DNA from: Giardia intestinalis
Lineage: Eukaryota
DNA length: 64,000 nucleotides
Assembly (NCBI GenBank): GCA_000002435.2
Contig: CM018792.1
Direction: 5' to 3' (one strand)
Below, one piece after another: positions 3,843 to 24,482 of this stretch. Both the position numbers and the translations under genes were made by a program. The number at the start of each line of letters is the position of its first letter. The stretch's first letter is position 1. A model generated the notes under the pieces. That model made no database searches. It saw nothing but the letters and a program-made list of their open reading frames with translations, and had not been told where the DNA came from.

Positions 3843-6374
3843 CTATTCGCTATACAACTGTACAAGATGTCTTATTTCAGCAGAAGAGCTTAGAGCATCT
3901 GGTGAGATCGTAGGCCTATACCCTAGCTTGGCTTCTTTCCCTAATAATACCCTTACGCAGTCGATCGAACCGTACATGCATGCAAAACATAGGGCTGTTA
4001 GACCTTCCTTGTTAGGGTGTCCCTCGCTTGTCCGCAGACCTGCTTCGCCAAGGAGCAACTCACAGGTTGAAGGCCTATTGTTCTTAGCAGCCCGCATAAG
4101 AGCCGTCTCTCCATATATATCGGTCATCCCCGCCTCTGTACCTACCAACACGCAAACGAGCGCATCGAGGCCCCTTTCAGCAGCAAGCATAAGTGCTGTG
4201 GTTCCATTCTCATCTTGTAGGCATCCCTGATAGGGTAGCATTGCCTTAACGCAGATGATGTCATTTCTTACAACGGCGTCCATCAGCTCTGTGAAGCGGC
4301 CTGTCGCACAATTTACCATTTGGCTTGTAAAGGAGTAGTTTCCAGTGTATTCTGGAATGACTCTCTTGTAGCTACTCTCTAGGATCTTTCCATTGACGCT
4401 TGGACGTTGAATACCTGCCTGTAGTACGTGTTTCTCTACAGTGCCGTGGGAAAACTGCCCCGAAAGAATCATGCTGGTCAGCTCCTTTCCCATTCCGTTA
4501 AATGATTGGGTGCTAAAGTCGGTGTGACCCCCACGGGATTCACGTTCAGTGGTGGGTACATTTGGAGGGCAGTACTCTTCTGCAGAGCGGCGTTGTATCG
4601 ACTCGAAGATAGGATCGGTAGAAAGGATTCCATGTGGGTCTGCGTGCGGAGGGACATCTCCGGCATCGTTTGCGGCTATGTTTGAATCGTACACCTCTCT
4701 GAGGTCTTCTGCTTTCTTTGTAGTCGTGGTTGGTAGTGGTGTTATATATGTATTTGTGTTAGAGTTTGCTAGGATAAGGCTCTTGTCTGCTCCATCTCTG
4801 TGTACAAGTGGTTCAGAGCTAGCTACTAATTGAGTATCCGAAGAAACGAGGGCAGGCATGTAGGGCACGGCGTATTGCTGGTCCTTCGCTTGTTCAACGA
4901 GTCTTGTCTCAATACCTTCCACGTCCACGCTTCTAGAATCCAGCAGCTCTCTGTCTGCAACCACGGAAGAAGAGCGCCCTAGGTGCTCCTCTGCCACTTT
5001 AACCTTTTCCTCAGTAAACTCCACTGCACTGCAGATTAGGCTATTCATTTCATCGACGGTCTTGTCCTTATAGGTTTCTATGGCCTGAGAGAGGGCAACT
5101 GACTCTCTGTCCAATTGCAGTGACTGTTGCAGGATGTTCGTAGACTGCTCCAGGATAGTATTGGCAGCTGACAGCTTTTTAACGGTTGCTGCGAAGATTG
5201 TAGGCTGATCAGCATCCAAACCCAACTCTTCATCGAGTGGATTGGCGGCTCTAGAATGGTTATCAGGAGACTCCCTTACCTTTGTCAAGGCGTCAACAAC
5301 AAGGTCGTGCGCATCCCTGATCACATCAACAGCTCGCTGGATTTCCTGCTCATGCGCTGTAGACGCTTTACATGAGATGGTCAGGTGGTCGAAGTCTTGA
5401 GCCGATGAGGTGGAATACTCGCTCCTGTCGACGACAGCCTTGCTCCTACTGATTGATTGAGAATACTCCAAGTATTCGTCGATAGAAATTTTCTTTGGTT
5501 CAGTGCATGCAAGGGTCGGAGGAAAAGTGGGATGACCCAGGTGGCGAGATTCATTCATGGGTCTGATTTCGTTCTTCTTGTATTCGGGCTTTTTAGACAC
5601 GTAATTGGCAGACAAGACAGATGCGTCAACCTCATCCTTAACTATGGAAGTAGCATCGATGCAAGGCCCCGTGGTGGATCTGGTTCTGGGTGCAACGACG
5701 TCTGCAGGGCTTAGAGGAATAACCTTGACATTACTGCTAGGGGTGTGGACCACAGAGTTGCTCACTGACATGGAGCTGTTACCGGGTTGGAAGAAAGAAT
5801 CTACGTGTTCGGCTTGATATGCGGCAATCTCTTTAAGGGTGGAGCACATTACCGTGTCACCCCGCCTCAGGGCTATCTCGGTGCAGGCAGTAAGCACATC
5901 CTTTGGAATAGGTATTTCGTGGCCAATCATAGCTGCGAGAGCATGGTTTCCGAGAGAGACAGCGTGTGCCAGGACGGAGAATCCGCGCTTGTCATACCAC
6001 TGTGTAGGATAACGGAGCAAATAACTGCAGAGCGTAGTATTCGCTGCATTTATTGCTAGCATAAGGGATGTATTTCCTTCTCTAGTGTAAATGTGCCCCT
6101 CAAAGGGCATCAAAAGCTGGACTATCTCCAGGTAGCCGTGCTTGACAGCCATGTGCATTGCACACTCTCCATCATTGTTTAGCAATGTAGCCTCCCTTTG
6201 CAGAAGGAAAGAAACAACATCTGCTTGATTTCCACGAGTTGCCACCATCAGGGCGGTTTCTCCAGAATCGTTTCTTCGTCCAGCACACTTGTCAACTAGG
6301 GAACTCATTCTGTCCTTATCTCCTACAAAAGCGCATTTAAACCACGTATCGATGAGGAGCCCCGCCGATTCCAT
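3843..6374 (-). CDS. Ankyrin-repeat / coiled-coil protein of the Giardia 'Protein 21.1' family.
   Basis: The 843-aa ORF has TALM-type ankyrin repeats at both ends (GTTALMLAAERGLDALVCVLVG, ETALMRAAKNN, ETALMVATRGNQADVVSFLL). The central region has predicted coiled-coil character. The start is ATG, and AGTAAAT follows 3 nt after the stop. Confidence 0.85.
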   Translation of the reverse strand: MESAGLLIDTWFKCAFVGDKDRMSSLVDKCAGRRNDSGETALMVATRGNQADVVSFLLQREATLLNNDGECAMHMAVKHGYLEIVQLLMPFEGHIYTREGNTSLMLAINAANTTLCSYLLRYPTQWYDKRGFSVLAHAVSLGNHALAAMIGHEIPIPKDVLTACTEIALRRGDTVMCSTLKEIAAYQAEHVDSFFQPGNSSMSVSNSVVHTPSSNVKVIPLSPADVVAPRTRSTTGPCIDATSIVKDEVDASVLSANYVSKKPEYKKNEIRPMNESRHLGHPTFPPTLACTEPKKISIDEYLEYSQSISRSKAVVDRSEYSTSSAQDFDHLTISCKASTAHEQEIQRAVDVIRDAHDLVVDALTKVRESPDNHSRAANPLDEELGLDADQPTIFAATVKKLSAANTILEQSTNILQQSLQLDRESVALSQAIETYKDKTVDEMNSLICSAVEFTEEKVKVAEEHLGRSSSVVADRELLDSRSVDVEGIETRLVEQAKDQQYAVPYMPALVSSDTQLVASSEPLVHRDGADKSLILANSNTNTYITPLPTTTTKKAEDLREVYDSNIAANDAGDVPPHADPHGILSTDPIFESIQRRSAEEYCPPNVPTTERESRGGHTDFSTQSFNGMGKELTSMILSGQFSHGTVEKHVLQAGIQRPSVNGKILESSYKRVIPEYTGNYSFTSQMVNCATGRFTELMDAVVRNDIICVKAMLPYQGCLQDENGTTALMLAAERGLDALVCVLVGTEAGMTDIYGETALMRAAKNNRPSTCELLLGEAGLRTSEGHPNKEGLTALCFACMYGSIDCVRVLLGKEAKLGYRPTISPDALSSSAEIRHLVQLYSE

Positions 6375-6470
6375 GAAAGGCTTCTGAAAAATTCTTTAAA
6401 ATGCGCAGCTTCCCCTTTGAGGCTGTTTACTTTAATTCTTTCCCGCAAGAAGTGCTAGAAAGAAGCTGCA

Positions 6471-8828
6471 TCAATCCTGAAGAGATCTCAAGTAGTCATA
6501 TATTTCTGGATACGTCGCTCGCTTGCATTTCATCAACGCCGTGGCACCCCCCTTCAACGTGAGATCCATTTCTATTGGAGCCAGGATTTTCACGGCATCC
6601 AGGTTTCCATGCTCTATAGCCTTGATAAGGGCTGTTGTGCCATCCTTGGTCTGCCGTCTGGCTTCATGATCAATCAGAAGCTTTACAATCTCCAAGTGGT
6701 TATTACGCGCAGCGCTCATCAACGCAGTCCATCCGTCTTTTCGAGACATCCCAGCTTCGTGAGGAATTAGAAGCTTGCATACATCGAGGTGACCATTGAG
6801 GGCAGCCGACATAAGAGCTGTTTTTCCTGAGTATGTGGCCTTCCCCACTTGCTTATCCAACAGAGCACAAACAACTTCCAAATGGCCGTTTTCTGCTGCT
6901 TTCATAAGAGCAGTTTCTCCCATCGTATTGGTGACCTTTTCTTGATATGGAACCAAAGAAAGAACCGTGCTAATGTCTCCTATAGCAGCAGCTAGAATAA
7001 GGGCTGTATTCCCGTCCTTATCTCTGAATGCGGTAGACTTTGTGAGTGTGTTATCTACGACAACTGCTTGTGCATCTTCACGAAGACTTTCAAGCAATCT
7101 GCTCGGTGCAGATGTATCCGCTGCAAACGCCGCATACCCGACTTGGGAAGGAGCAACTGGCATGTTGGTAGATGATAGCAATTGAGAAGTGCTCAGCTTA
7201 CTACCATCTATTGTACTATTAGACTGTGTAATAGACGGCGCAGTACCAAGGCCATCGAAACGCTGCGTTCCTGGACTCCCATGATAGCCACTTAGGTGCA
7301 TCTTTTCCAGATTGTCATGTGTAGAGGCCCGCACATTCCCTGCTGTGCCAGATGTCTGAGGATAATCTTCAGTACTATCAAGAATTCCACTCTGAACCAT
7401 TGTCAATTGCTTTCTTAACTCTAGTATCTCTGTATTCTTAGATCCCATTTGCTCTTCCAATTCAGCAATCCTCTTGGATGAAGTTGCATTATCACTCGAA
7501 AATTGAGCCATCCGAGTATTAAGGTCAGTGATGGTCTTTAGCAAATTAGTGTTTTGCTCCTGTGCTGCTGTCTGACTTTGTACCAAAGAATCAACTGCAG
7601 ACTGAGATGCTGCCAGCTTGGCCACAAGTTCAACGTTCTCTGTTTCCAACCGAGAAACTCGCCCCTGCAGGAACGTGCGCTCCTCCTGCTGAGACGCCAA
7701 CTGGTTTGCAACAACAGTTGCGCGGGCGTTGATTGCGTTTTCCGTCATGCGAATTATCTCTGTTGTGTTTTCTTCTAGTTCAGCTACCTTTGCCCTCAGC
7801 ATTTTGATCTCCTCATCTTTCAAGTGCAATTCGCTTTGGAGAGAGTTGACATGAGTACTCGATGTTGATACCTGTAGCATGAGTGCCGTAGATTCGCTGG
7901 AGGAGCTTCTCACTAATGCCTTCTGCTTCTCAAGCTCGGCCTCAAGCCTAGCAATCGTTGACTGACTCTCTGTTATCTGTGCCATGAAGTTGGAGTTAGC
8001 GTTCTGCGTTGATGCCACCGCCTCCATGGCAGTTTGATACTGTGAGAGCAGAGATGCATTTTGCTCCTTGACGCGGTTCAGTTCTGCTGAAAGCTCATTA
8101 TTTTGTCGAGTGAGCTTGGCACAGTTATCACACAAAGATGCATGGCCTATTTGGCTGGTGATAGTGGGTCCTGAGGAGAAGGATGGCGATGAAACTGAAA
8201 ATACCGGGGCAGGCGTAGGTGCTGTGGCAGCAGAAAAGGGCGCTACTGGCTGTGCCACTGGTTGTACCACTGGTTGCGGAATAGTGGTCTGCAAACATGG
8301 AGGTACAATCTGTTGTAGCCCGGGAGCCACAGAAGCAGCTGAAATCGCAGGAAATGGTGTGGTAGCTACAGGAGCAGGCACAACTGTCCCTAACAAGGGA
8401 AGTAGATCTGTATATCCCAAGTTCTGAGCAAGCTGTGCAGCAGTCAATCCATCATTATTTTTCAGCAGGCCAAATTGCACAAGAAGTTTTGGTATACATG
8501 ACTTTGCACGAACCCGAACTGCCCAATGTAAAAGAGTATCTCCTGCCGCGTTCCTAACAGAAGCCTCATAGGGAAGCATCAAAGAAACGATATCCCAATT
8601 GTCCGAGTCCAATCCAAAATGTATTGCTGCCTTACCAGAACCTGTCGTACACCCCTGTTCGTGAGCGCAAAGCTCCTGCACCACTGCGATATGTCCGCAA
8701 CATGCGCTGATCATCAAAGCCGTCATTCCGTCCGTGGTTGTAGCAGTACGGAAAACGGCACAATTGGCTCGGATGAATTGTGAGTCCCCGCTTTCTGCCG
8801 CTTTGAACCAATCTTGGACAGTTGGCAT
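6471..8828 (-). CDS. Ankyrin-repeat / coiled-coil protein (Protein 21.1 family).
   Basis: The 785-aa ORF has one N-terminal ankyrin repeat, a long Q/L/E-rich coiled-coil segment, and five C-terminal TALM ankyrin repeats (NTALILAAAIGD, ETALMKAAENGHLEVV, KTALMSAALNGHLDV, WTALMSAARNNHLEIV, TTALIKAIEHGNLDAV). AGTAAAC lies about 40 nt downstream of the stop, at 6425-6431. Confidence 0.85.
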   Translation of the reverse strand: MPTVQDWFKAAESGDSQFIRANCAVFRTATTTDGMTALMISACCGHIAVVQELCAHEQGCTTGSGKAAIHFGLDSDNWDIVSLMLPYEASVRNAAGDTLLHWAVRVRAKSCIPKLLVQFGLLKNNDGLTAAQLAQNLGYTDLLPLLGTVVPAPVATTPFPAISAASVAPGLQQIVPPCLQTTIPQPVVQPVAQPVAPFSAATAPTPAPVFSVSSPSFSSGPTITSQIGHASLCDNCAKLTRQNNELSAELNRVKEQNASLLSQYQTAMEAVASTQNANSNFMAQITESQSTIARLEAELEKQKALVRSSSSESTALMLQVSTSSTHVNSLQSELHLKDEEIKMLRAKVAELEENTTEIIRMTENAINARATVVANQLASQQEERTFLQGRVSRLETENVELVAKLAASQSAVDSLVQSQTAAQEQNTNLLKTITDLNTRMAQFSSDNATSSKRIAELEEQMGSKNTEILELRKQLTMVQSGILDSTEDYPQTSGTAGNVRASTHDNLEKMHLSGYHGSPGTQRFDGLGTAPSITQSNSTIDGSKLSTSQLLSSTNMPVAPSQVGYAAFAADTSAPSRLLESLREDAQAVVVDNTLTKSTAFRDKDGNTALILAAAIGDISTVLSLVPYQEKVTNTMGETALMKAAENGHLEVVCALLDKQVGKATYSGKTALMSAALNGHLDVCKLLIPHEAGMSRKDGWTALMSAARNNHLEIVKLLIDHEARRQTKDGTTALIKAIEHGNLDAVKILAPIEMDLTLKGGATALMKCKRATYPEIYDYLRSLQD

Positions 8829-8870: not shown

Positions 8871-10088
8871 CTATGTTTGGTCCTGCATTTGGCTAAACTC
8901 TTCTAGATCAACCTTCCACTCCTCAATGTGTGCTCTGCACATGGGGCAGTTGCGACGATTCAAGTCCACTAGCTTTTCTGAGCACGCAATACATGCACAT
9001 CTGTGACCACAAGGAATACACGTCATAATGCAAAGATCAGAGAGACAAATGGTGCATACTCCTAGTACATCCTCCTTATCTTTATATTGAATGGAAATAA
9101 GGTATTGAAGGCCATCGCCAGCTAAAAGGGCACGGGTTTCATCGTCTCTAATGCGCTTTGCAAGGTTCCGGATCGAGTACTTACCTTTGTCCCTTATAGT
9201 GTACTCTAAGGGAAGAAGGATCTTGATGCAATCTGTGAATTCCGCATAGATAGCATATGCCAGCGCACACCAACCCCCGGAGTCCAAAATGCATGCCTCA
9301 TGCTCTGCGAGCAGCCTCACGCACTTGACATTGTTGCGCATGGTCGCCCGGATGAGTGCAGTGTAGCCTTCCTTGTCTTGCATGCGCGCCTCCTTCCCGT
9401 CTTGCAGAAGGAGCCGAACACATTCCTCCGAGCCAGCTGAGGCTGCATACATCAGAGCGGTGACACCGTTGCTATCAGACTTTCCAGAGTCCCGCGCGAT
9501 GCACTCGGCCACTTGAGACGTCGCATTGGCAGCAGCAGCACTCATAAGAGGGGTAATGCCCTCCAGAGGCATCTCTCGGTCAGCTAGCTTGTTAACTGCG
9601 TGTACATTCTTGCGTGAAATTGCGTGCTGCAAGGCAGTAGAGCCTTTGTTGTCACACAGCGTGGCCTCTACCTCCACTAGCTTGTCTGTTGGGCACATAT
9701 CATGCGCACAAGCGTACATAAGAGCTGTCCACCCTTCTGTGTCTTTCATTTTCCCCTCCGCGTCAACAAGTAGATCAACACAATCTGCGTGACCAAGCAT
9801 TGCAGATATCATTAAAGCCGTGCGTCCAAAGGAATCTACGAGCCTCGCCTCATGCTCACGCAGCACCTTTACTACCTCGGATTGGTTGAACATCGCTGCA
9901 GCCATCAATGCCGTCGAGCTATTTGTTGTCCGCAGACCTGTCTGGCTAAGGTTTTTCTTAACGGCTTCAACATCTCCTTTAGCCGCCGCTTCCACCAAAT
10001 CCGTGTCTGCCCCAGTTCGTACATACACGGGTGGCTTGGGTGTCCTCAATTGAATCCTCTGCAGAGGCAACACTTGCGGTGTGGGCAT
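8871..10088 (-). CDS. Ankyrin-repeat protein with a C-terminal C3HC4 RING finger of the zf-C3HC4_3 / Mind-bomb type. Start refined to the ATG at 10088.
   Basis: TALM ankyrin repeats are followed by CTICLSDLCIMTCIPCGHRCACIACSEKL...CPMCRAHI. The track start at 10160 is TTG and would overlap the upstream gene. The ATG at 10086-10088 is directly preceded by ttttaaaaag. Confidence 0.8.
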   Translation of the reverse strand: MPTPQVLPLQRIQLRTPKPPVYVRTGADTDLVEAAAKGDVEAVKKNLSQTGLRTTNSSTALMAAAMFNQSEVVKVLREHEARLVDSFGRTALMISAMLGHADCVDLLVDAEGKMKDTEGWTALMYACAHDMCPTDKLVEVEATLCDNKGSTALQHAISRKNVHAVNKLADREMPLEGITPLMSAAAANATSQVAECIARDSGKSDSNGVTALMYAASAGSEECVRLLLQDGKEARMQDKEGYTALIRATMRNNVKCVRLLAEHEACILDSGGWCALAYAIYAEFTDCIKILLPLEYTIRDKGKYSIRNLAKRIRDDETRALLAGDGLQYLISIQYKDKEDVLGVCTICLSDLCIMTCIPCGHRCACIACSEKLVDLNRRNCPMCRAHIEEWKVDLEEFSQMQDQT

Positions 10089-15925: not shown

Positions 15926-16861
15926 ATGGACGATACCACACCAGACGTCCTTTTAGACAAGGCTGCAGAATACATTGAGAAACTCACTGATCAAGTGTCA
16001 CAACAGAAAGGCGAGATAGAACGTCTAGAGCTGGTTGTAAGGGAGCAGAGCATTCTGATGGACAGCATGGCTACACAGCTAAAGGATAATGAGATTGCAG
16101 AATCCATGGATGAAGGCACCTTCTCTAACCAGCAACAAAAGATTTCCGATTTGGAAACGGCAATAGAGGTGATGACGCTGGATTTGGAGTCTCGCTCAAA
16201 CAGTATTGTTGCTTTGTTCTCCCAGGTAAGTCATTTAAATGCCTTCATAACCAAGCTCCTCAACGCGTGTCTTACTGACCTGAACTCCGTGCAAATCATC
16301 GAGGACCTCCGACAGTTGTCTGTCAAGGCCAACCAACTCGAGGTGTCTATCTTAGAGATGGGACTGCCCTTATCTGAGTGTACAGGACCAGCGAGCCAGG
16401 ACCCTGCTGTCAGTGAGTCGGCTATCCATATTCCTCTCAAGTCGGAGTGTACGCAATCTCGCCCAAGCTCAGAGAAGGGTAGGCCAGAGGATGACGAGCT
16501 AGAGTATTACAAGAGGCGCTGTGCTGCGTTAGAGCACCAGGTGGAAACCCTGAGAGAGGCTTTACTCAGTCAGGAGGAGCTGTCTCGTCGCATTGTAACA
16601 ACAGCTCCTTCAAATCAACGATCAGCATCTGTATCAATAAAAGGAGACGCCCTATCGCCTTCATTTCGTCAACTAGCGCTTCTTGAGATGCTGCAGCTTG
16701 TCAACAAAGAACTTAGTAAAAGTCCCAAGGTCCACCTCAATACTGCATTCGATCCCGAACTGTCTACATCCCTGAAATCAGTGGCACTGGGAACCCCTGC
16801 AACAGCTCAGCAGCTTCATCACTTTCCCGAGACGTTTATGTGCCTCATGAGTGGAGTGTGA
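15926..16861 (+). CDS. Coiled-coil hypothetical protein.
   Basis: The 311-aa ORF has an ATG start and heptad-like E/L/Q-rich segments. No catalytic motif is recognised. Confidence 0.6.
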   Translation: MDDTTPDVLLDKAAEYIEKLTDQVSQQKGEIERLELVVREQSILMDSMATQLKDNEIAESMDEGTFSNQQQKISDLETAIEVMTLDLESRSNSIVALFSQVSHLNAFITKLLNACLTDLNSVQIIEDLRQLSVKANQLEVSILEMGLPLSECTGPASQDPAVSESAIHIPLKSECTQSRPSSEKGRPEDDELEYYKRRCAALEHQVETLREALLSQEELSRRIVTTAPSNQRSASVSIKGDALSPSFRQLALLEMLQLVNKELSKSPKVHLNTAFDPELSTSLKSVALGTPATAQQLHHFPETFMCLMSGV

Positions 16862-16889
16862 TTTATCGCATGATTACAAAACCAAAATC

Positions 16890-17177
16890 ATGTTGGCCGG
16901 TGGTTGGACTGAGCTAGCTCCAGCCGACGTCAACAGCAAGGTGCGCGAGGCGGCGGCTGCCAAGATCGCGGAGAGTGTGTCTGGTGCAACAATAGCTGAG
17001 GTTATCAAGGCCTCGTCACAGGTTGTCCGAGGCGTCAACACCATGCTTCTTACACGCCTCAGCACCGGAGCGCACTACATCGTAGTCGTGTGGTTTGATC
17101 TAAAGAATTATATTGTGACGACCCTGAAGGAATACACCGGCAACTTGGCTAATTTTACTTGGCCTATGCGGGAGTGA
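16890..17177 (+). CDS. Stefin-type (type 1) cystatin, a cysteine-protease inhibitor. Start refined to the ATG at 16890.
   Basis: The 95-aa product aligns along its whole length with stefins: an N-terminal Gly (MLAGGW), a PAD/PAT motif, the QVVRG hairpin (compare QVVAG), and a following GVNTMLLTRLSTGAHYIVVVWF beta-strand block. The track start at 16851 is GTG. Confidence 0.7.
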   Translation: MLAGGWTELAPADVNSKVREAAAAKIAESVSGATIAEVIKASSQVVRGVNTMLLTRLSTGAHYIVVVWFDLKNYIVTTLKEYTGNLANFTWPMRE

Positions 17178-17487: not shown

Positions 17488-19737
17488 ATGAACAATAATC
17501 GGGGAGCATCCAGCGAGGAGACCGCACCTTCAGACGATGGCAACGAAAAGCTTTTGCAGGCCGTTATCAGTCAAGATATAAACGAACTCAAGTCACTCAT
17601 TGCAGCAGGAACCTGTTTGTGTAAGCAGGACAGGACCGGCATGACAGCTCTTATGCATGCAGCGGCTCAGGGCAGTATTCTAATGACAGGCATGTTGGTG
17701 GAGTACGAGAAGGGACTGAAAGATAGTAACGGAAAGATGGCTCTGCACCATGCCCTGAGAGGCGGCCATGTCGACGTTGCAGGGCTCCTTCTTTCATATG
17801 AAGACCCTCGGGATCGAAATGGCGTTACTGCACTGATGCGGGCCTCGGCCATTGGTGACATGGAGGTGGTTGTGCATCTTGTGAAGCTTCAGGGAGCCGT
17901 ACAGACCATCAATAGCGGATCTTATAAGCTTGAATCAGGCACTTACTCATTCAACGAAGGGGCAACGGCACTTATGTTTGCCGCGTGGTATGGGCAAAGC
18001 GAGGCAGCAAAGGTGTTACTAGGTCGTGAGAGCAGGATACGGGATAATGGCCGGTTGACTGCTCTTATGTATGCAGCAGAACGCGGTTACATCGAGGTAG
18101 TGAAAGAGCTGAGACCTAGGGAGTCCAGAATGCAGAACTGGCTCGGTAGAACTGCGCTTATGTTTGCTGCCCAAAATGGACATATGGATGTGGTCAGGTT
18201 ACTATTAGAAGACGAGAAGCAGATGGTGGATGGAAATGGCTGGACTGCTCTTATGTACGCGGCTTCTAATGGCCATGTTGAAATAGCTTGCTTACTGCTA
18301 GATCACGAGAAGTGTGTCCAAGATAATGATGGCTGGTCGGCGCTCATGTTCGCTGCATATTATGGATACACAGATATGGTAGGGCTGTTATTAAGTGAGG
18401 AAAAGGGACTTAGAGATAGCAAGGGTCGAACCGCCCTTATGCACGCCGCAGAAAAGGGAAATGTTGATGCAGTTAAGCTACTTGTGGGATATGAAGCGCG
18501 TGCACAAACATATGCGGAATATACTGCTCTTATGCTTGCTGCATACGCCAACCATGCAGAGGTTGCAACGGTGCTCCTGCCTTATGAAGGAGGAATGCAG
18601 ACCACAATTGGCTGGACTGCTCTTATGGAGGCTGCACTGTATGGCCACACTGAAGTAATTTCCGTGCTCATGCAATGTGAAGGTGGGTTGCACAGGAATG
18701 ATGGATGCACCGCCCTCATATACACTGCATACGAGGGGCAAGAGGAGATGGTGAAGCTTCTTTTCGATCTCGAAAGGGAGTCCTCCGGATGGACTAAACT
18801 GATGTATGCGGCAAGCTTGGGACTCACAGCCACTGCTGGTGCCCACTTAAGCGATGCTGGACAGCAGGACAATATTGGGCTTACTGCGCTTATGTATGCA
18901 GTCAGGAACTGCCGGACAGAAATGGTTAAGTTATTAGCAACACACGAGTGTGGATTTCAAGATAGTGGTGGTTGGACAGCGTTGATGCATGCAACACTTT
19001 GTGGGTATCGAGATCTTATCAGGCCCTTGCTTTGTGAAGCCGGTTCTCAGTCGTTGGTAGCCCATCGAAACTATCCTCCTGGGACCACCGCCTTAATGAT
19101 AGCAGCCTACCAGAATGATGCATATACTGTGGATTTGCTTGCTTCACTAGAAGCAGGATTTCTCAATTCGGACGATGACTGTGCACTGATTCTTGCACTA
19201 CAGAATGCCAGCGCAGAGTGCATCCCCTTGTTACTCTGTGAATTGTCTGTCCTTGATAGCCACGGCAAAGCATGCTACTTTAGGATTCACACACTCGATA
19301 TAGATGAATCCCCCAAGCTTACCTTGCTTTATGAACGCCTCCGGGACACGCTCAAGACAATGTTCTTTTCAGGACTTCAGAAGGAGCGGCTGGCTTGCTT
19401 GTTAACTGCACTAACTCGCTCTGTCAGCTCCCTGATTACCTCAGGCCATTTCCTCTTAGAACTTATGTGGGCAGCCCTACTCTGCGAATACGACAATGTC
19501 ATTACCGACCTTGATGAACAGTTTGTTCTGATCGAAGATGCGTATATAGAAGATACGTGTGCGATCTGCCTGACTCGTCCTCCTGATTGTGTTCTCTTGC
19601 CGTGTCGACACTTGATTGTTTGCTTGGCATGTGTTGATCGTATTTACGCAAACAAGTCATGCTGCAAGTGTCCCTATTGCCGCACACCCATTGAAACTAT
19701 ACTTGACCTTGCGGAGTGTAATTTTACTCTGTTATAA
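17488..19737 (+). CDS. Ankyrin-repeat protein with a C-terminal Mind-bomb-type RING finger. Start refined to the ATG at 17488.
   Basis: About 15 TALM ankyrin repeats precede CAICLTRPPDCVLLPCRHLIVCLACVDRI...CCKCPYCRTPI. The track start at 17479 is TTG. Confidence 0.85.
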   Translation: MNNNRGASSEETAPSDDGNEKLLQAVISQDINELKSLIAAGTCLCKQDRTGMTALMHAAAQGSILMTGMLVEYEKGLKDSNGKMALHHALRGGHVDVAGLLLSYEDPRDRNGVTALMRASAIGDMEVVVHLVKLQGAVQTINSGSYKLESGTYSFNEGATALMFAAWYGQSEAAKVLLGRESRIRDNGRLTALMYAAERGYIEVVKELRPRESRMQNWLGRTALMFAAQNGHMDVVRLLLEDEKQMVDGNGWTALMYAASNGHVEIACLLLDHEKCVQDNDGWSALMFAAYYGYTDMVGLLLSEEKGLRDSKGRTALMHAAEKGNVDAVKLLVGYEARAQTYAEYTALMLAAYANHAEVATVLLPYEGGMQTTIGWTALMEAALYGHTEVISVLMQCEGGLHRNDGCTALIYTAYEGQEEMVKLLFDLERESSGWTKLMYAASLGLTATAGAHLSDAGQQDNIGLTALMYAVRNCRTEMVKLLATHECGFQDSGGWTALMHATLCGYRDLIRPLLCEAGSQSLVAHRNYPPGTTALMIAAYQNDAYTVDLLASLEAGFLNSDDDCALILALQNASAECIPLLLCELSVLDSHGKACYFRIHTLDIDESPKLTLLYERLRDTLKTMFFSGLQKERLACLLTALTRSVSSLITSGHFLLELMWAALLCEYDNVITDLDEQFVLIEDAYIEDTCAICLTRPPDCVLLPCRHLIVCLACVDRIYANKSCCKCPYCRTPIETILDLAECNFTLL

Positions 19738-20048: not shown

Positions 20049-23000
20049 TCAACTACTATCCTCATCTATGACATAGACCTCTTCGTCTATAAGCCATTTG
20101 TACTTTTTCTTTTGCAATTTTAAATCTAAGCCTTCAGATACCTGGTTCCGTAATAGAAAAATAGGCGTTATCAATGCAGTAGAATTCCTTCTGCATAGCG
20201 GGCATTGAGCGTTCTCATTTTCAGTTCCAATTTCCCGCGAGCACCTGCGACAGTACACCATGTGACCACACGGAACGACACATACCTCTTTGGCGCGCGA
20301 CATGCAGATGACGCAAGCCCCATCTGGGTTTGTTGATCCATTCAAGTCAGGGTTGGAGTACAGGTAGTTGTGGCAAAGCTTTCTTATCTGTCTCTGTCGA
20401 GAATCTATGTGTGAGCCTATAGGCTCTGCCGATTCACCTATAGCATCAAACTGTGCAAAAAATGCCTCGAACAGCTCGTAACAAAGTGCCCTTCTCTCCT
20501 GCTTCTCTTGCAATGAAATATGGCTGCTTTGTGTCAGAAGATTGATACTCTTATAACATCTGGAAATAAATTTATGTAGCCCCTTGCGTACTGCCATTAG
20601 GGACTGCGTTGGAATTTTCATTGAGAGAGCTACATTCAAAACTATGTCGATAAGATACTGACTTTCCATGCAATAATCAAGCGCCCTATTTCCATACATG
20701 TCGGACTTATGCAGAATGTCGTGGAAGAATGATAACTCGATGGATAGCGGCTTTAGTTCTATTGGTGTTTTCATGAAGATATCAGCAAGGCCCGGCAGCT
20801 GTTGTCCTGTATTATAATTCTCAAAGGAATCTCCTCTGAGACAAGTCAAAATGGCAGTGTACCCGTCCTGACCTACTAAGGCTATGATCTTCTGGGAAAG
20901 CTCCTTCTCCACAATATAACTGGACATGAGTGTATTTTCATTGTAGATGTGTTTTATGGATGAGTTTAGTAATGGGTGAGCAGCATCGGTTACAGATTGA
21001 TCTGTATTGTCAGATGTATCCGAAAACATCGATTCGTCGGAAGAGCTTAACAATTCGCTGGATGGCTCAGATGAGTGTACAAAATTAGCGAGATTTTGCC
21101 TAAGAAATATAAGATCCGGTGAATTAGGCGAAGCAGTATATGTGGGCAGGATATTGAAGGCTGTGCTACTTTGGTTTAAGTGCGACCTATTCCCAATTGT
21201 ACGGTCTTGCTGCTGAATCAGTCTTGTTCTGTGATGAAGCTGTTCATCAGATCCCTCTTCGTACACTCCAGGCAAATCCTGCTGAGACATGGTTGCCATT
21301 GGTTGGCTTTCTGTCTCAGAAGACAAGACACTCTCGTCAATAATATCAGGAGTACTGAGGCTAAGGGGGTTGGTCTGTAGACAAAGGATATTAGCGCTAG
21401 CAAACTTCTCCTTGAGCGCATACCCGAGCAGTAGAAACATCAGAGGAGTCATGCCGTAATTGTTCACCAAGTAGCCCTCCTTTGATACTAGTTCTTGAAG
21501 CAATATGGAAGGCAGAACCCTGGTTATATCACAGCAAGCTAGCAGGCAAAGGTGCATAAGAGCAGTGTTACCATCGTTGTCTTGCATGCCGCACTCCTCA
21601 GTCAGAAGCGAGCCAATAATATCTGCAGATGGGATGCCTCTCCTCAATGCAAACATCAATGCTGTCATACCTTGCGATGTTCGCATCCTCCCTTCCTTGC
21701 TAAGCAGCATATATGTGACAGCCAGCGGATTGTTTGCCTTCACGGCAACCATCAGCGCAGTCTCTCCAAGCGACGCCTGAGATCGGAGGAGCCTAGGGCT
21801 CAGTGCATTGAAGAGCTTTGCATATAGGAAGGTGTGCTTCAAAGCTGAAAGCCTCATCATCATCGTCCAACCCTTTCTATCGGGACAGTTGAGATAATGA
21901 GGGTTGTTGCCTTCATACCTTATAAGCATATCTATTTTATCTGTCTCTTGTCTCAGAAGCCAGTCTTCATGCAGGACCATGTAGCCCAGCGTATGTATAC
22001 CCTCTGAATCCACAGCAGTAAAATCAACCTCAGCTAGCTGGAGCGGATCGTAATTAAGGGACCGATCAGATAACGTTCTGTTGAACGCAACGAAGTCAAG
22101 CGAGGAGTAAAACTCAAAAAAATGAACTACACGAAGCGGTAAATTGACAACTGCAGCCTTGAGCAGAACACGACAATAGAACGACGCAATGTTTGCGCTA
22201 AGAAACAAGCCTACTAAGTCGCTAAACGGAATGACGAGGCCATACAGGTCTCTCAGGCTCCTTTTAGGAGCAAGTCCATTATGTCGGATTTCACCATCGG
22301 AATCAATATGAACACGCACATACATGGAAATGGACGCGCAAAGAGACTCTATCATATATGGTGTGCGCCCCTTAGCGTCTCGAAAGCCTCGTCCTCGATG
22401 ATTGAGGATTAGATCCCTAAGATTGCCATTCCTGAACAGCATTGTGACATAGAGAGCTGAGGCCACGTCGTCATCATCTGCGTTGCTTATTATGCTCTGC
22501 ATCAAGCGAGAGTAGTCCTCACTCAAGAAGAAGCGCTCTGGACAGCTCTGCTTATCTTCTATCTTATTATGCTCGGATATCTGGCGTAGAATATCTAGGA
22601 ACCCCATTGTCGGGGCATGAAGTGCAACTTGTGACAACTTCGCGCTGGGCGGCATTGTTGAGGCAAAGAGGAGAGCGAATAGGTCACGTGCTCTGTGGCG
22701 AGATCCTGCAGTATCTTGTTTTATGAGGCTGCTCAAGGGTATATTAATATCGTGAGACTTAACAAGTGTTCTATAAAAGTACTGCAAGGCATAGTTCCAT
22801 AACAGTCTGTGTCCCTTGAAGCATGCGCAAATGGAAGCCAAAAAGGTGATAACTGATAGATTGTCCTTGTGGGGTTGCATGACAACGGGCTTGATGATCT
22901 CAAGTATAGCCTTGGAGTCCGGATAGGGCGGGCAAACAGACATAGCAGACTTTATAAAATAGGTGAGGTCGCTGGAATAGTTGGCTCTATGTGCAGGATA

Positions 23001-24482
23001 GTGGCCAAGTACTACAGCGGTGGCATATTGTAAACACTTGTCCTGGGTCAACGAAGAGAGCTCATTCCCGAAGAAGATGTCATGAGCCAGGGTAATCAGG
23101 TTGGAAAGAGATAGCTCCGGCAGTATACCAAAAAGGTCGAGATTGGAAATCTTCCTCACGGTCTCAACCGGGTCCTGATCTTCAGGAGGTGGTGAAGGCA
23201 GACTTGAAGAAGCGTTGTTCCGTGATTCCAAGCAGATAGAAGAAAATGCAAACTTGAGAGACGCTTCTTTATCTGAGGGAGTGAGGGTTGAGAAATTCGT
23301 GGCATGGTCGCTCAGAAACTTTTTCACTGTAAGGCGACTATCCGGCAAAGAGATAATATTAAAACAAGAAGCAGTACTTAGGCGACTCATTTGAAGACCT
23401 GCCGCTATTTCTGTTATGGGAATTAATGGAGGAGCAGTCCCACGAGCATATATTATCTCCGCTACCATATTGGTTTTTAATGATGAGAAAAGATCTGTAG
23501 AGCTGCACGCAAATTTCCATCCTGGTGATATAAATAAGGTATTAGAAAACAATAGAGGGGCGACGGAAAAATCTAAAAAGGATTTTGAACCATTTATGAC
23601 ATTAATGGGAGACAAGGCATTAGACCTCAAGAATGATCTGTTTGCTACATGTGGAGAATAGAAAGCATGGCCATGCAATATAAGTGGTGGATCAAGTGTT
23701 TCAGTAGACCCTCTCCGCGCGCCCGGATAAGCTGGCGGAAGGCCGATTGCTGTAGAAGTATAGCGTAGGCTAGGCTCTAACACGCCATCTTCCTGCTCTG
23801 CTTCACTAGACCCACTGTCTTGGCTAGTTTCTGTCGATGACGACATGCTTATTAGAGTGGCGGGATCAGCTGATCCTGCAGGACTACTAGACATACTGAA
23901 CTCAAGAGTATTTTCACTATTGTTGGGTGTAGACAGGGAATGCTCCCCCAACTCGTGATTAGGCTGGACAACGGTGGCTTCTAAAGTAGACTCAGTGAGC
24001 ATATCTATAACGGTGGGAGCCTCGTTAGTATTAGATCTAAGTGTCTGCTGAGTGGATGGATTTGTATGGCCCCTTGTGGACTGATTGAGGGACTCAATTA
24101 TGTCCTGTCTGTCGCTAATAGAATGGGGCTCATGCTGGCAGCTCAGTATTATCTGCGCGGCCTGGTAATTCTGATGAAAAATAGCATATGTCAATGCCGT
24201 GTAGCCGTGATTATCAGCAATTGAGTGTTCAACCGGGGCTAGGACTTTAACAGCGTCGAGAAAGCCGGAGGAGGCAGCAAACATCAGCGCAGTCATCCCA
24301 TTAGCATCTCGCGTACCTGCCTCCAAAGGAATAAGGCTTTCAATGAGCCACAATTTTCTCATATAAACGGCGTAAAAAAGGCCCGATCGGCCAAACTCGT
24401 CGCAGTCTTTTGGTGAGGTCCGTAGGAGCTCGGTTATCTTCTCGTCTGATGCCACGGCGATGCATCTTGGCCAAGCGTGCAT
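20049..24482 (-). CDS. Very large ankyrin-repeat protein with a C-terminal RING finger. Start refined to the ATG at 24482.
   Basis: N-terminal and mid-protein TALM repeats (MTALMFAASSGFLDAV, ETALMVAVKANN, MTALMFALRRG, NTALMHLCLL) are present. The C-terminus reads CVICMSRAKEVCVVPCGHMVYCRRCSREI...CPLCRR. The track start at 24581 is GTG, and the ATG at 24482 is preceded by AT-rich sequence. Confidence 0.8.
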   Translation of the reverse strand: MHAWPRCIAVASDEKITELLRTSPKDCDEFGRSGLFYAVYMRKLWLIESLIPLEAGTRDANGMTALMFAASSGFLDAVKVLAPVEHSIADNHGYTALTYAIFHQNYQAAQIILSCQHEPHSISDRQDIIESLNQSTRGHTNPSTQQTLRSNTNEAPTVIDMLTESTLEATVVQPNHELGEHSLSTPNNSENTLEFSMSSSPAGSADPATLISMSSSTETSQDSGSSEAEQEDGVLEPSLRYTSTAIGLPPAYPGARRGSTETLDPPLILHGHAFYSPHVANRSFLRSNALSPINVINGSKSFLDFSVAPLLFSNTLFISPGWKFACSSTDLFSSLKTNMVAEIIYARGTAPPLIPITEIAAGLQMSRLSTASCFNIISLPDSRLTVKKFLSDHATNFSTLTPSDKEASLKFAFSSICLESRNNASSSLPSPPPEDQDPVETVRKISNLDLFGILPELSLSNLITLAHDIFFGNELSSLTQDKCLQYATAVVLGHYPAHRANYSSDLTYFIKSAMSVCPPYPDSKAILEIIKPVVMQPHKDNLSVITFLASICACFKGHRLLWNYALQYFYRTLVKSHDINIPLSSLIKQDTAGSRHRARDLFALLFASTMPPSAKLSQVALHAPTMGFLDILRQISEHNKIEDKQSCPERFFLSEDYSRLMQSIISNADDDDVASALYVTMLFRNGNLRDLILNHRGRGFRDAKGRTPYMIESLCASISMYVRVHIDSDGEIRHNGLAPKRSLRDLYGLVIPFSDLVGLFLSANIASFYCRVLLKAAVVNLPLRVVHFFEFYSSLDFVAFNRTLSDRSLNYDPLQLAEVDFTAVDSEGIHTLGYMVLHEDWLLRQETDKIDMLIRYEGNNPHYLNCPDRKGWTMMMRLSALKHTFLYAKLFNALSPRLLRSQASLGETALMVAVKANNPLAVTYMLLSKEGRMRTSQGMTALMFALRRGIPSADIIGSLLTEECGMQDNDGNTALMHLCLLACCDITRVLPSILLQELVSKEGYLVNNYGMTPLMFLLLGYALKEKFASANILCLQTNPLSLSTPDIIDESVLSSETESQPMATMSQQDLPGVYEEGSDEQLHHRTRLIQQQDRTIGNRSHLNQSSTAFNILPTYTASPNSPDLIFLRQNLANFVHSSEPSSELLSSSDESMFSDTSDNTDQSVTDAAHPLLNSSIKHIYNENTLMSSYIVEKELSQKIIALVGQDGYTAILTCLRGDSFENYNTGQQLPGLADIFMKTPIELKPLSIELSFFHDILHKSDMYGNRALDYCMESQYLIDIVLNVALSMKIPTQSLMAVRKGLHKFISRCYKSINLLTQSSHISLQEKQERRALCYELFEAFFAQFDAIGESAEPIGSHIDSRQRQIRKLCHNYLYSNPDLNGSTNPDGACVICMSRAKEVCVVPCGHMVYCRRCSREIGTENENAQCPLCRRNSTALITPIFLLRNQVSEGLDLKLQKKKYKWLIDEEVYVIDEDSS

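What the first reader, a model, noticed from the sequence alone, without database searches (positions are those of the whole stretch)
3843..24482. Seven-gene array of TALM-type ankyrin/coiled-coil (Protein 21.1-like) paralogs, three with Mind-bomb-type C-terminal RING fingers
About 20 kb is devoted to seven ankyrin-repeat genes, five of them in a head-to-tail run on the minus strand. Four share the architecture ankyrin, long coiled coil, ankyrin. Three (8871-10088, 17488-19737, 20049-24482) end in a C3HC4 RING finger with the zf-C3HC4_3 spacing C-x2-C-x9-11-PCGH-x2-C-x2-C...C-P-x-C-R. Mind-bomb E3 ubiquitin ligases use exactly this combination of ankyrin repeats and RING finger. The cluster looks like a locally expanded family that mixes structural and cytoskeletal members with candidate E3 ligases. 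No NEK kinase domain is attached to any member.
Basis: partly seen in the sequence, partly recalled or inferred. Interest (0 to 1): 0.55.

Follow-up and report, generated by a model that had tools for sequence, protein, structure and literature searches.

The report
Conserved Giardia ankyrin-repeat gene cluster
This is a real but already annotated cluster of seven ankyrin-repeat ("Protein 21.1") genes in Giardia intestinalis, three of them candidate RING ubiquitin ligases; it is an old, conserved arrangement rather than a recent local gene expansion, and the genes are not Mind-bomb homologues.

Summary
The window is Giardia intestinalis WB chromosome sequence. All seven genes match reference proteins KAE8304351-59 exactly. 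They are annotated "Ankyrin repeat protein 1/2/3" (formerly Protein 21.1).

**Confirmed**
- Seven ankyrin genes lie in 20.6 kb, and five run head-to-tail.
- Three have complete C-terminal zf-C3HC4_3 RING fingers.
- None has a kinase domain.
- All 38 TALM-type motifs of the window fall inside the cluster.

**Corrected**
- Only two genes (g2, g4) carry a long coiled coil. The g1 case is marginal. The g5 linker is proline-rich, and no coiled coil was detected in it.
- The run is interrupted by a coiled-coil hypothetical gene and by the known Giardia cystatin gene.
- g6 has PCRH, not PCGH.

**Not supported: local expansion**
- Neighbours share only 29-47% identity, and only within the ankyrin repeats.
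- There is no repeat at the DNA level.
- g1-g5 each have a 1:1 orthologue in the same order in G. muris.
- The closest paralogues found for g3, g4 and g6 lie elsewhere in the genome.

**Not supported: Mind-bomb membership**
- There is no MIB/HERC2 or ZZ domain, and each protein has a single RING.
- The XB3-type RING profile is not met either.

Giardia ankyrin-RING proteins were already catalogued as candidate E3 ligases in 2020. Interest is low. The only modestly new points are the statistically unusual clustering and its conservation.

The parts
3843..6374 (-). g1. 'Ankyrin repeat protein 1' (KAE8304351, XP_001705671), 843 aa. N-terminal ankyrin block (about aa 1-160), a roughly 525-aa Ser/Thr/Pro-rich linker with at most a short helical or coiled segment (aa 339-369), and a C-terminal ankyrin block (about aa 690-843).
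   Evidence: Pfam Ank_2 4.3e-41. Exact match to the reference protein. Coiled-coil heuristic and proline-free runs. G. muris orthologue m1.
6471..8828 (-). g2. 'Ankyrin repeat protein 3' (KAE8304352), 785 aa. N-terminal ankyrin block, long coiled coil, and a C-terminal block of about six ankyrin repeats.
   Evidence: Pfam Ank_2 1e-50, plus sub-threshold coiled-coil families. Exact match. Orthologue m2 at 35% identity over 728 aligned positions.
7377..8153 (-). Coiled-coil segment of g2 (aa 226-484).
   Evidence: Heptad-periodicity score above the 99.9th percentile of shuffles. 268-aa proline-free run. Conserved in G. muris m2. Coordinates checked.
8871..10088 (-). g3. 'Ankyrin repeat protein 2' (KAE8304353), 405 aa. 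About nine ankyrin repeats, a short helical linker and a C-terminal RING.
   Evidence: Pfam Ank_2 2.4e-48 and zf-C3HC4_3 3.9e-9. AlphaFold model with mean pLDDT 82, showing an ankyrin solenoid plus a RING-like beta-alpha-beta unit. G. muris orthologue at 43% identity over 92% of its length.
8937..9056 (-). RING finger of g3 (aa 345-384).
   Evidence: C-x2-C-x11-C-x-H-x3-C-x2-C-x11-C-x2-C. Ligands invariant in orthologues.
10111..13335 (-). g4. 'Ankyrin repeat protein 1' (KAE8304354), 1074 aa. N-terminal ankyrin block, long coiled coil and C-terminal ankyrin block.
   Evidence: Pfam Ank_2 3.4e-41. Exact match. Orthologue m4 at 38% identity over the full length.
11029..12036 (-). Coiled-coil region of g4 (aa 434-769, three segments).
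   Evidence: 275-aa proline-free run. Conserved in m4. Coordinates checked.
13477..15891 (-). g5. 'Ankyrin repeat protein 1' (KAE8304355), 804 aa. N-terminal and C-terminal ankyrin blocks joined by a roughly 450-aa proline-rich linker that is probably disordered. No coiled coil was detected.
   Evidence: Pfam. Exact match. No heptad signal. 8.6% Pro and a longest proline-free run of 39 aa. A low-confidence AlphaFold model shows only 16-20-aa helices in the linker.
15926..16861 (+). Hypothetical protein GL50803_6605, 311 aa. A non-ankyrin coiled-coil protein that interrupts the array. It is transcribed divergently from g5.
   Evidence: No Pfam family at or above its cut-off (two sub-threshold coiled-coil matches, E about 0.004-0.006). 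Name. Weak positional counterpart mC in G. muris.
16890..17177 (+). Cystatin (KAE8304357; DHA2_27918 in isolate DH), 95 aa. An unrelated gene embedded in the cluster.
   Evidence: ORF. Exact match named 'Cystatin'. G. muris positional orthologue mB at 44.7% identity.
17488..19737 (+). g6. 'Ankyrin repeat protein 2' (KAE8304358), 749 aa. An ankyrin solenoid (11 TALM-type motifs), a helical linker and a C-terminal RING. It is the only ankyrin gene on the plus strand and has no positional orthologue in G. muris.
   Evidence: Pfam Ank_2 2.6e-164 and zf-C3HC4_3 3.8e-11..
19558..19680 (+). RING finger of g6 (aa 691-731). It reads PCRH rather than PCGH.
20049..24482 (-). g7. 'Ankyrin repeat protein 2' (KAE8304359), 1477 aa. 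An N-terminal ankyrin block, a roughly 690-aa Giardia-specific region with no known domain, a second ankyrin block (about aa 877-1015) and a C-terminal RING.
   Evidence: Pfam. For the central region, only Giardia orthologues plus one weak hit (E = 1.7e-4, source unknown) among 1.84 billion representatives. Collinear weak similarity to the G. muris positional counterpart m7.
20193..20315 (-). RING finger of g7 (aa 1390-1430).
   Evidence: zf-C3HC4_3 at 47-49 bits.

Best explanation
The region is an old, syntenically conserved cluster of seven divergent members of the Giardia ankyrin-repeat protein family (ARP, formerly 'Protein 21.1'). It sits on a G. intestinalis WB chromosome and is already annotated as such.

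**The two kinds of gene**
- Four genes (g1, g2, g4, g5) encode bipartite proteins: an N-terminal four-repeat ankyrin block, a long linker, and a C-terminal ankyrin block.
- In g2 and g4 the linker holds a coiled coil of about 260-340 residues. This probably dimerises the protein, giving a scaffold with four ankyrin blocks.
- In g1 and g5 the linker is mostly low-complexity and probably disordered.
- Three genes (g3, g6, g7) pair ankyrin repeats with one C-terminal IAP-type (zf-C3HC4_3) RING. They most likely act as single-subunit RING E3 ubiquitin ligases. The ankyrin solenoid would bind the substrate, and the RING would bind and activate a ubiquitin-charged E2.

**History**
The genes did not arise by recent local duplication. 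The five-gene run and the flanking RING gene g7 already existed before G. intestinalis and G. muris diverged. g6 is present in assemblages A and B but not at this position in G. muris.

**Shown versus inferred**
Shown: gene structure, domains, zinc ligands, synteny and lack of recent duplication. Inferred: E3 activity, dimerisation, and any cytoskeletal target.
For: - **Identity:** exact matches to KAE8304351-59, named ARP-1/2/3. The naming scheme is defined in PMC7000408.
- **Domains:** Pfam Ank and zf-C3HC4_3 above their cut-offs, and no kinase.
- **RING:** eight ligands, Cx[I]C and CPxCR in all three. Ligands are invariant in g3 orthologues. The AlphaFold model of g3 (pLDDT 82) shows an ankyrin solenoid plus a RING-like unit. 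The best solved-structure sequence matches are active RING E3s: MEX3C, MGRN1, MUL1, cIAP, XIAP and MDM2.
- **Coiled coils:** present in g2 and g4 and conserved in the G. muris orthologues.
- **Synteny:** G. muris has m7, m5, m4, m3, m2, m1 in the same order and orientation, with clear 1:1 best hits. Assemblage B has the identical seven-gene order.
- **No recent duplication:** 29-47% identity confined to repeats, and no long DNA repeats.
- **Nearest paralogues are elsewhere:**
- **Prior publication:** 30 Giardia ankyrin plus single-RING proteins were listed as candidate E3s (PMC7029713).
Against: - No experiment on these seven proteins was found. The GL50803 identifiers of the seven ankyrin genes could not be established, so localisation datasets could not be queried.
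- E3 activity is inferred from sequence only.
- The paralogue sampling is incomplete. The protein search lists only hits up to about 1.75 times the query length and the best 120. An old tandem origin for some pairs therefore cannot be excluded; the g2 and g5 N-terminal blocks are weakly reciprocal best hits.
- The m7/g7 orthology is weak (24-26% identity in collinear pieces), and the m7 RING is closer to the g6 RING (47%) than to the g7 RING (38%).
- The coiled-coil calls rest on a home-made heptad heuristic, not on a standard predictor.
Confidence: 0.8

Rival explanations
1. Recent local tandem expansion. The seven genes are each other's closest relatives, produced by duplication in place.
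For: Seven family members lie in nine consecutive genes, five of them head-to-tail. Four have the same bipartite architecture. Their N-terminal blocks align without indels.
Against: - Pairwise identity is only 29-47%, and only in the repeats.
- No DNA repeats exist beyond the TALM-coding motif.
- Each of g1-g5 has a far closer 1:1 orthologue in G. muris, in the same order.
- The closest paralogues found for g3, g4 and g6 are outside the window.
- The 'WFxA' N-terminal cap is found across the whole family.
Confidence: 0.03
2. Ancient tandem duplication. Some of the bipartite genes (g1, g2, g4, g5) arose from one ancestor by duplication in place before the Giardia species split, and have since diverged to near saturation.
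For: - They share an ankyrin, linker, ankyrin architecture and the same strand.
- Their 150-aa N-terminal blocks are collinear at 24-30% identity.
- The g2 and g5 N-terminal blocks are near-reciprocal best paralogue hits in the sampled set (about 81 bits).
- The g1 C-terminal block scores best with g4 and m4, though not reciprocally.
- The clustering is far beyond random placement.
Against: - Both blocks of g4 are closer to a 1218-1290-aa ARP-1 encoded elsewhere (P0420, P0414, P0424) than to any neighbour.
- Most neighbours rank 20th to 200th among sampled paralogues.
- The bipartite architecture and the WF cap occur elsewhere in the family.
Confidence: 0.3
3. Chance juxtaposition. With about 305 ARPs and 184 NEKs in a 12 Mb genome, a run of ARPs is simply a statistical accident with no historical or functional meaning.
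For: The family makes up 6% of all genes. It is described as scattered over all chromosomes and associated with rearrangements (PMC7000408, PMC7641422).
Against: The genome-wide expectation under random gene order is about 0.004 for five consecutive ARPs and about 1e-4 for at least 7 of 8. The arrangement has been kept in G. muris and in assemblage B.
Confidence: 0.1
4. The three RING genes are Mind-bomb (MIB) orthologues, or members of the plant XB3/XBAT family.
For: Ankyrin repeats are followed by a zf-C3HC4_3 RING. A published BLAST table gives MIB1 or XBAT as the best hit for many Giardia ankyrin-RING proteins (PMC7029713). The MIB1 ANK structure appears among hundreds of ankyrin fold matches (rank 34).
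Against: - There are no MIB/HERC2 or ZZ hits, and only one RING.
- The XB3-specific RING profile PF24921 scores 13 bits against a cut-off of 50 for g3 and g7, and gives nothing for g6.
- Solved-structure sequence matches to the RINGs are generic.
- Fold matches are generic ankyrin proteins.
- The published analysis states that the MIB modular architecture is not conserved.
Confidence: 0.03
5. The RING domains are structural zinc modules without ligase activity, for example dimerisation or protein-binding domains, so the three proteins are scaffolds like their neighbours.
For: No activity data exist. Giardia has many catalytically 'dead' NEK kinases fused to ankyrin repeats (PMC7641422), so degenerate enzymatic domains are common in this superfamily. 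g6 evolves quickly, at 69% identity between assemblages A and B.
Against: All zinc ligands and the residues usually needed for E2 binding and activation are retained in all three. These are the Ile in Cx[I]C, the Pro in CPxC, and the Arg after the last Cys. In g3 they are conserved across the deep G. muris split.
Confidence: 0.15

Closest known systems
Giardia ankyrin repeat proteins ARP-1/ARP-2/ARP-3 (formerly 'Protein 21.1'), as defined for the 2020 WB reference genome (PMC7000408)
   Same: The seven genes are members by definition and by annotation. They have ankyrin repeats of the Giardia 'TALM' type and no kinase domain. The three RING genes are annotated ARP-2 (ankyrin plus zinc finger). 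g2 is ARP-3 and g1, g4 and g5 are ARP-1.
   Different: Nothing differs at the protein level. The tight seven-gene clustering and its conservation in G. muris are not mentioned in the genome papers, which describe ARPs as scattered without obvious clustering.
Giardia ankyrin-RING candidate E3 ligases catalogued by the 2020 ubiquitin-pathway inventory (PMC7029713)
   Same: The architecture is the same: ankyrin repeats plus a single C-terminal C3HC4 RING. Thirty such genes are listed, including GL50803_6602, which by its number is probably one of the genes here.
   Different: The identifier mapping could not be verified. No biochemical data exist for any member.
Mind bomb (MIB1/MIB2) E3 ligases
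   Same: Ankyrin repeats lie upstream of RINGs of the zf-C3HC4_3 type. The presumed logic is the same: a repeat domain plus a RING that recruits an E2.
   Different: There are no MIB/HERC2 or ZZ substrate-recognition modules, and there is one RING instead of two or three. There is no specific sequence or fold affinity.
Plant XB3/XBAT ankyrin-RING E3 ligases
   Same: Domain order matches: N-terminal ankyrin repeats and a single C-terminal RING. This is the closest overall architecture for g3 and g6.
   Different: The family-specific RING profile (PF24921) is far below threshold, at 13 bits against 50. g7 has a large orphan central region and two separate ankyrin blocks.
IAP-type RING E3s (cIAP, XIAP, MUL1, MGRN1, MEX3C, MDM2)
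   Same: The RING subtype is the same (zf-C3HC4_3). These are the best sequence matches among solved structures, at E of about 1e-6 to 1e-3. The CPxCR ending is shared.
   Different: Everything outside the RING differs.

Membership tests
Giardia ARP / Protein 21.1 family | Ankyrin repeats without a protein kinase domain, in a Giardia genome | tested here: met
   Pfam Ank families with E = 1e-27 to 1e-164 and no Pkinase hit in any of the seven. Exact matches to proteins named 'Ankyrin repeat protein 1/2/3' or 'Protein 21.1'.
ARP-2 subclass (ankyrin plus zinc finger; PMC7000408) | A Pfam zinc-finger domain in addition to ankyrin repeats | tested here: met
   zf-C3HC4_3 at 36.6, 43.0 and 47.2 bits (cut-off 27) in g3, g6 and g7. 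It is absent from g1, g2, g4 and g5. The annotation agrees.
RING-type E3 ubiquitin ligase | Cross-brace C3HC4 pattern with all eight zinc ligands | tested here: met
   Regex and alignment: g3 C345-C384, g6 C691-C731, g7 C1390-C1430. Ligands are invariant across g3 orthologues.
RING-type E3 ubiquitin ligase | Residues that contact and activate E2~Ub: a hydrophobic residue in Cx[ILV]C, Pro in CPxC, and a basic 'linchpin' after the last Cys. This list of residues comes from my own knowledge of RING E3s. | tested here: met
   CTIC, CAIC and CVIC, and CPMCR, CPYCR and CPLCR. Presence in the sequence only.
RING-type E3 ubiquitin ligase | Ubiquitin transfer activity with an E2 | not testable with these tools
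   Needs an in-vitro ubiquitination assay.
Mind bomb (MIB) E3 ligases | N-terminal MIB/HERC2 and ZZ substrate-recognition modules | tested here: not met
   No MIB_HERC2 or ZZ hit at E <= 0.01 in any protein. The g7 central region has no Pfam hit even at E <= 1.
Mind bomb (MIB) E3 ligases | Two or three C-terminal RING domains | tested here: not met
   One RING match per protein.
Mind bomb (MIB) E3 ligases | Ankyrin repeats upstream of a zf-C3HC4_3 RING | tested here: met
   This feature is shared with XB3/XBAT and with 30-33 other Giardia genes, so it is not diagnostic.
Plant XB3/XBAT ankyrin-RING family | XB3/XBAT31-type RING (Pfam PF24921, cut-off 50 bits) | tested here: not met
   g7 13.0 bits, g3 13.3 bits, g6 no hit.
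Plant XB3/XBAT ankyrin-RING family | N-terminal ankyrin repeats plus a single C-terminal RING | tested here: met
   g3 and g6. g7 only loosely, since it has two ankyrin blocks and a large orphan region.
   Met in g2 (aa 226-484) and g4 (aa 434-769). Marginal in g1 (31 aa). Not met in g5, which has no signal, 8.6% Pro and a longest proline-free run of 39 aa. The method is a heuristic.
Tandemly duplicated (locally expanded) gene array | Neighbours are each other's closest paralogues | tested here: not met
   Orthologues in G. muris and paralogues elsewhere score higher. The only hint is the g2/g5 N-terminal blocks. The paralogue sample is incomplete.
Tandemly duplicated (locally expanded) gene array | Residual DNA-level similarity or gene conversion tracts | tested here: not met
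   Only 26-74-nt stretches of 60-85% identity, most of them over the TALM-coding motif.

The most novel reading that the evidence does not exclude
The array is a conserved functional module and not just a historical accident. It has been held together for the whole Giardia radiation: five head-to-tail genes with 22-141 bp spacers, plus g7 and the embedded cystatin gene. On this reading it encodes proteins that work together on one cellular structure: dimeric ankyrin scaffolds (g2, g4), flexible ankyrin linkers (g1, g5), and dedicated ankyrin-RING ligases (g3, g7, and later g6) that control their turnover. Co-location would then reflect co-regulation. This would be the first functional gene cluster described for the Giardia ARP family.
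Probability: 0.08. Interest if true: 0.45.

Novelty: already known. Interest (0 to 1): 0.17.

Why it matters
The ARP and NEK families make up about a tenth of Giardia's genes, and their functions are mostly unknown. Ankyrin-RING proteins may be the parasite's main source of substrate-specific E3 ligases, because it is reported to lack the multisubunit SCF and APC/C ligases (PMC7029713).

This locus adds no new kind of gene. All seven are annotated, and the ankyrin-RING class has been described. Two small points may be useful. This is a statistically unusual and evolutionarily stable ARP cluster, whereas the genome papers describe the family as scattered. It also offers a compact set of 1:1 orthologous ARPs (G. 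intestinalis A and B, and G. muris), suitable for localisation and ubiquitination tests. Otherwise the result is a correction: not a recent expansion, not Mind bomb, and a coiled coil in only two members.

Tried and rejected
- **N-terminal profile search (A1).** It returned only proteins of 262 aa or less, mostly bacterial or metagenomic ankyrin proteins. The tool appears to list only hits up to about 1.75 times the query length, so this search said nothing about Giardia paralogues.
- **Whole-protein phmmer ranking and summed BLAST scores.** Both are dominated by the number of ankyrin repeats: g6 and other repeat-rich proteins top every list. I replaced them with best-HSP and block-specific comparisons.
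- **Literature searches.** I searched UniProt and RefSeq accessions and neighbouring GL50803 identifiers. The only result was one table entry (GL50803_6602). I could not map the seven genes to GiardiaDB identifiers, so I could not look up published GFP localisations.
- **Fold search of the g3 model against the PDB.** It gave only generic ankyrin structures, such as DARPins and ankyrin-B, with MIB1 ANK at rank 34. It is uninformative about family membership.
- **Single-sequence AlphaFold of g5.** The model had low confidence (pLDDT 41.6). I use it only as weak support for the absence of a long helix.
- **Exhaustive search with the g7 central region and Pfam at E <= 1.** The only significant relatives found were Giardia orthologues (one further hit at E = 1.7e-4, source unknown), so the region remains an orphan.
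- **Cystatin ORF.** Pfam and PDB sequence searches of the 95-aa ORF were not significant. Its identity came from the exact-match look-up.


Full report
**Source and identity**

The window is Giardia intestinalis (assemblage A, isolate WB clone C6) chromosomal DNA.
- All seven proteins of the finding and six other genes looked up in the window (the two inside the cluster and four flanking it) are exact matches to GenBank proteins KAE8304350-KAE8304362, on a 2.76 Mb contig.
- A variant-specific surface protein ending in CRGKA lies further along the window.
- The reference annotation names the seven genes 'Ankyrin repeat protein 1' (g1 3843-6374, g4 10111-13335, g5 13477-15891), 'Ankyrin repeat protein 3' (g2 6471-8828) and 'Ankyrin repeat protein 2' (g3 8871-10088, g6 17488-19737, g7 20049-24482).
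- Older records call them 'Protein 21.1'.
- The 2020 WB reference-genome paper defines these names. ARP-1 has ankyrin repeats only (267 genes). ARP-2 has ankyrin plus a zinc finger (33 genes). ARP-3 has ankyrin plus another Pfam domain (5 genes). NEK kinases with ankyrin repeats are counted separately (184 genes) (PMC7000408).

**Checking the observation: what holds**

- Pfam confirms strong ankyrin matches in all seven, and no kinase domain in any.
- All eight zinc ligands are present with RING spacing. The three RINGs also share the isoleucine of Cx[I]C and the CPxCR ending.
- The ligands of g3 are invariant in orthologues from assemblage B, from another lineage and from G. muris.
- An AlphaFold model of g3 (mean pLDDT 82) shows nine ankyrin repeats, a short helical linker and a small beta-alpha-beta unit where the RING lies.
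- Five genes (g1-g5) are consecutive on the minus strand, with spacers of 96, 42, 22 and 141 bp.
- All 38 G-x-T-[AP]-L-[MI] motifs of the 64 kb window fall between 4112 and 24299.
- Given 305 ARPs among 4,963 genes, a run of five is expected about 0.004 times per genome under random gene order. At least 7 ARPs in 8 genes is expected about 1e-4 times, and at least 3 ARP-2 in 6 genes about 0.03 times.

So the cluster is real and more than chance.

**Checking the observation: three corrections**

- The 'ankyrin, long coiled coil, ankyrin' architecture holds for two genes, not four.
  - A heptad-periodicity score calibrated on shuffles finds long segments only in g2 (aa 226-484) and g4 (aa 434-769). 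The same is true of their G. muris orthologues.
  - g1 has about 31 such residues and g5 has none.
  - The g5 linker is 8.6% proline, and its longest proline-free run is 39 residues. The longest runs are 268 residues in g2 and 275 in g4.
  - A low-confidence single-sequence AlphaFold model of g5 shows only 16-20-residue helices in the linker.
  - All four do share ankyrin block, long linker, ankyrin block.
- The g6 RING reads PCRH, not PCGH.
  - One is the coiled-coil hypothetical GL50803_6605 (15926-16861, +).
  - The other is a 95-aa gene at 16890-17177 (+). It is the annotated Giardia cystatin, and its DH-isolate counterpart is tagged DHA2_27918.

**Is it a local expansion?**

The evidence says no, at least not a recent one.
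- Within the window, the best pairwise alignments are 29-47% identical and confined to the ankyrin repeats.
- At the DNA level, the only repeats are 26-74-nt stretches of 60-85% identity, most of them over the TALM-coding motif.
- The G. muris genome carries the same arrangement on chromosome CM016925.1. An ankyrin-RING gene (m7) comes first, then three small genes on the other strand, then five head-to-tail ankyrin genes.
- By best BLAST HSP and by phmmer, those five are unambiguous 1:1 orthologues of g5, g4, g3, g2 and g1, in that order. Examples are m4/g4 at 38% over 1,152 aligned positions, m3/g3 at 43% and m2/g2 at 35% over 728 positions. Every other window gene scores two- to five-fold lower.
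- The middle small gene in G. muris (mB) is the cystatin orthologue, at 44.7% identity.
- These identities are typical. The G. muris paper reports 44.7% average similarity over 3,043 positional orthologues, and says local synteny is common (PMC7641422).
- Assemblage B (isolate GS) has all seven genes plus the two interlopers in identical order.
- WB-GS identities run from 69% (g6) to 89% (g4).

**Nearest paralogues**

- For g3, the best hit after its orthologues is a 707-aa Protein 21.1 (XP_001704556), encoded elsewhere.
- For g6 there is a sharp drop from its assemblage orthologues (67-84%) to about 33% for NEKs and other ARP-2s. No window neighbour appears in the best 120.
- The non-ankyrin C-terminus plus RING of g6 is 38% identical over 190 residues to a 907-aa ARP-2 from elsewhere. 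It has no comparable match to g3 or g7.
- Among 86 RINGs collected, g3, g6 and g7 rank 29th to 68th for one another.
- Both blocks of g4 are closest to a 1218-1290-aa ARP-1 encoded elsewhere.
- The N-terminal 'WFxA' cap shared by g1, g2, g4 and g5 occurs in 10 of 119 unrelated ARPs, so it is a family trait.
- The only hints of an old in-place duplication are two. The N-terminal blocks of g2 and g5 are near-reciprocal best paralogues, at 33% identity and about 81 bits. The g1 C-terminal block scores best with g4 and m4, though not reciprocally.
That limits claims about ancient history. It cannot rescue a recent expansion.

**Gene 6 and gene 7**

- G. muris has no counterpart of g6 at this position. 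A 258-aa gene without similarity sits there instead.
- The partial G. muris m7 is weakly collinear with g7. The matched regions are g7 aa 521-978, 744-1059 and 1281-1431.
- m7 is also weakly collinear with the C-terminal half of g6. Its RING is more like that of g6 (47%) than that of g7 (38%).
- Whether g6 and g7 derive from one ancestral gene is open.
- The 690-aa central region of g7 has no Pfam match even at E <= 1.
- In an exhaustive search of 1.84 billion representatives, it finds only two G. intestinalis-lineage orthologues and one weak hit. It is a Giardia-specific orphan region.

**Comparison with Mind bomb and XB3**

- Mind bomb is defined by N-terminal MIB/HERC2-ZZ substrate-recognition modules, ankyrin repeats and two or three C-terminal RINGs (as summarised in PMC7029713). 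None of the three proteins has a MIB/HERC2 or ZZ match, and each has one RING.
- Sequence searches of the three RINGs against all solved structures return generic IAP-type RING ligases: MEX3C, MGRN1, MUL1, cIAP, XIAP and MDM2, at E of about 1e-6 to 1e-3.
- A fold search with the g3 model returns generic ankyrin proteins, with the MIB1 ankyrin domain at rank 34 among hundreds.
- The plant XB3/XBAT family has the closest overall architecture. Its specific RING profile (PF24921, cut-off 50 bits) scores only 13 bits for g3 and g7 and nothing for g6.
- The genes therefore work like ankyrin-RING E3s, but they are not members of either family.
- This has been published. A 2020 inventory of the Giardia ubiquitin system lists 30 ankyrin plus single-RING proteins. 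It compares them with XB3 and MIB, and notes that the MIB modular architecture is not conserved (PMC7029713).
- That list includes GL50803_6602, which by its number is probably a gene of this locus. I could not verify this.

**Likely mechanism (inferred)**

- For g3, g6 and g7, the ankyrin solenoid would bind a substrate, and the RING would recruit and activate a ubiquitin-charged E2.
- The retained Ile, Pro and terminal Arg are the residues that usually make this contact. That statement rests on my general knowledge of RING E3s, not on a test here.
- For g2 and g4, the central coiled coil probably forms a parallel or antiparallel dimer that displays four ankyrin blocks, a cross-linking scaffold.
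- g1 and g5 would be flexible tethers with two ankyrin blocks.
- A cytoskeletal target is plausible, because many Giardia ankyrin-containing NEK kinases localise to the disc and flagella (as stated for NEKs in PMC7641422). No localisation data for these seven genes could be retrieved.

**Verdict**

Candidate E3s is supported. Local expansion, 'exactly' Mind bomb and four coiled coils are not.
- The genes and the ankyrin-RING class are already known.
- The only modestly new points are the statistical tightness of the cluster and its conservation, with the cystatin gene inside it, from G. muris to G. intestinalis.
- Interest is low.

Noticed in passing
window 16890-17177 (+): A 95-aa gene lies inside the ankyrin cluster, between GL50803_6605 and g6. 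It is the annotated Giardia cystatin (KAE8304357; DHA2_27918 in isolate DH). It has the GG...QVVxG signature but no significant Pfam or PDB sequence hit. Its position is conserved in assemblage B and in G. muris, where mB is 44.7% identical.
   Followed up: yes
window 21873-23942 (-), g7 aa 181-870: This roughly 690-aa region of the RING protein g7 has no Pfam match even at E <= 1. In 1.84 billion representatives it finds only Giardia orthologues plus one weak hit (P0468, E = 1.7e-4). It is a lineage-specific orphan region inside a candidate E3.
   Followed up: partly
L001 (G. muris CM016925.1) 1-4658, versus window 16862-24482: G. muris has no g6 at the syntenic position; a 258-aa gene without similarity sits there. 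The RING of its flanking ankyrin-RING gene m7 resembles the g6 RING (47%) more than the g7 RING (38%), while the body of m7 is weakly collinear with g7. g6 and g7 may share an ancestor.
   Followed up: partly
window 1719-2552 (-): Hypothetical protein GL50803_103981 (277 aa, Pro/Gly-rich C-terminus) belongs to a multi-copy family. At least five more WB proteins, all listed in the same 90%-identity cluster, are encoded on three other chromosome-scale contigs. It lies directly beside the ankyrin cluster.
   Followed up: no
window 52154-53356 (+) and 54159-56237 (-); also 58531-59310 (+): There is a variant-specific surface protein with the CRGKA tail, and a large cysteine-rich membrane protein (HCMP-like). 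A further Cys-rich ORF fragment looks like a VSP pseudogene. These lie in the GC-richer (53-61%), ORF-poor right-hand part of the window.
   Followed up: no
window 17488-19737 (+) versus L002 378-2621: g6 and the neighbouring hypothetical GL50803_6605 diverge much faster between assemblages A and B (69% and 67% identity) than g2-g5 and the cystatin (81-89%); g1 is intermediate at 78%.
   Followed up: no
tool behaviour: the search for homologous proteins listed no hit longer than about 1.75 times the query: 709 aa for a 405-aa query, 262 for 150, and 1308 for 749. Short-domain queries therefore cannot retrieve long multidomain relatives.
   Followed up: yes
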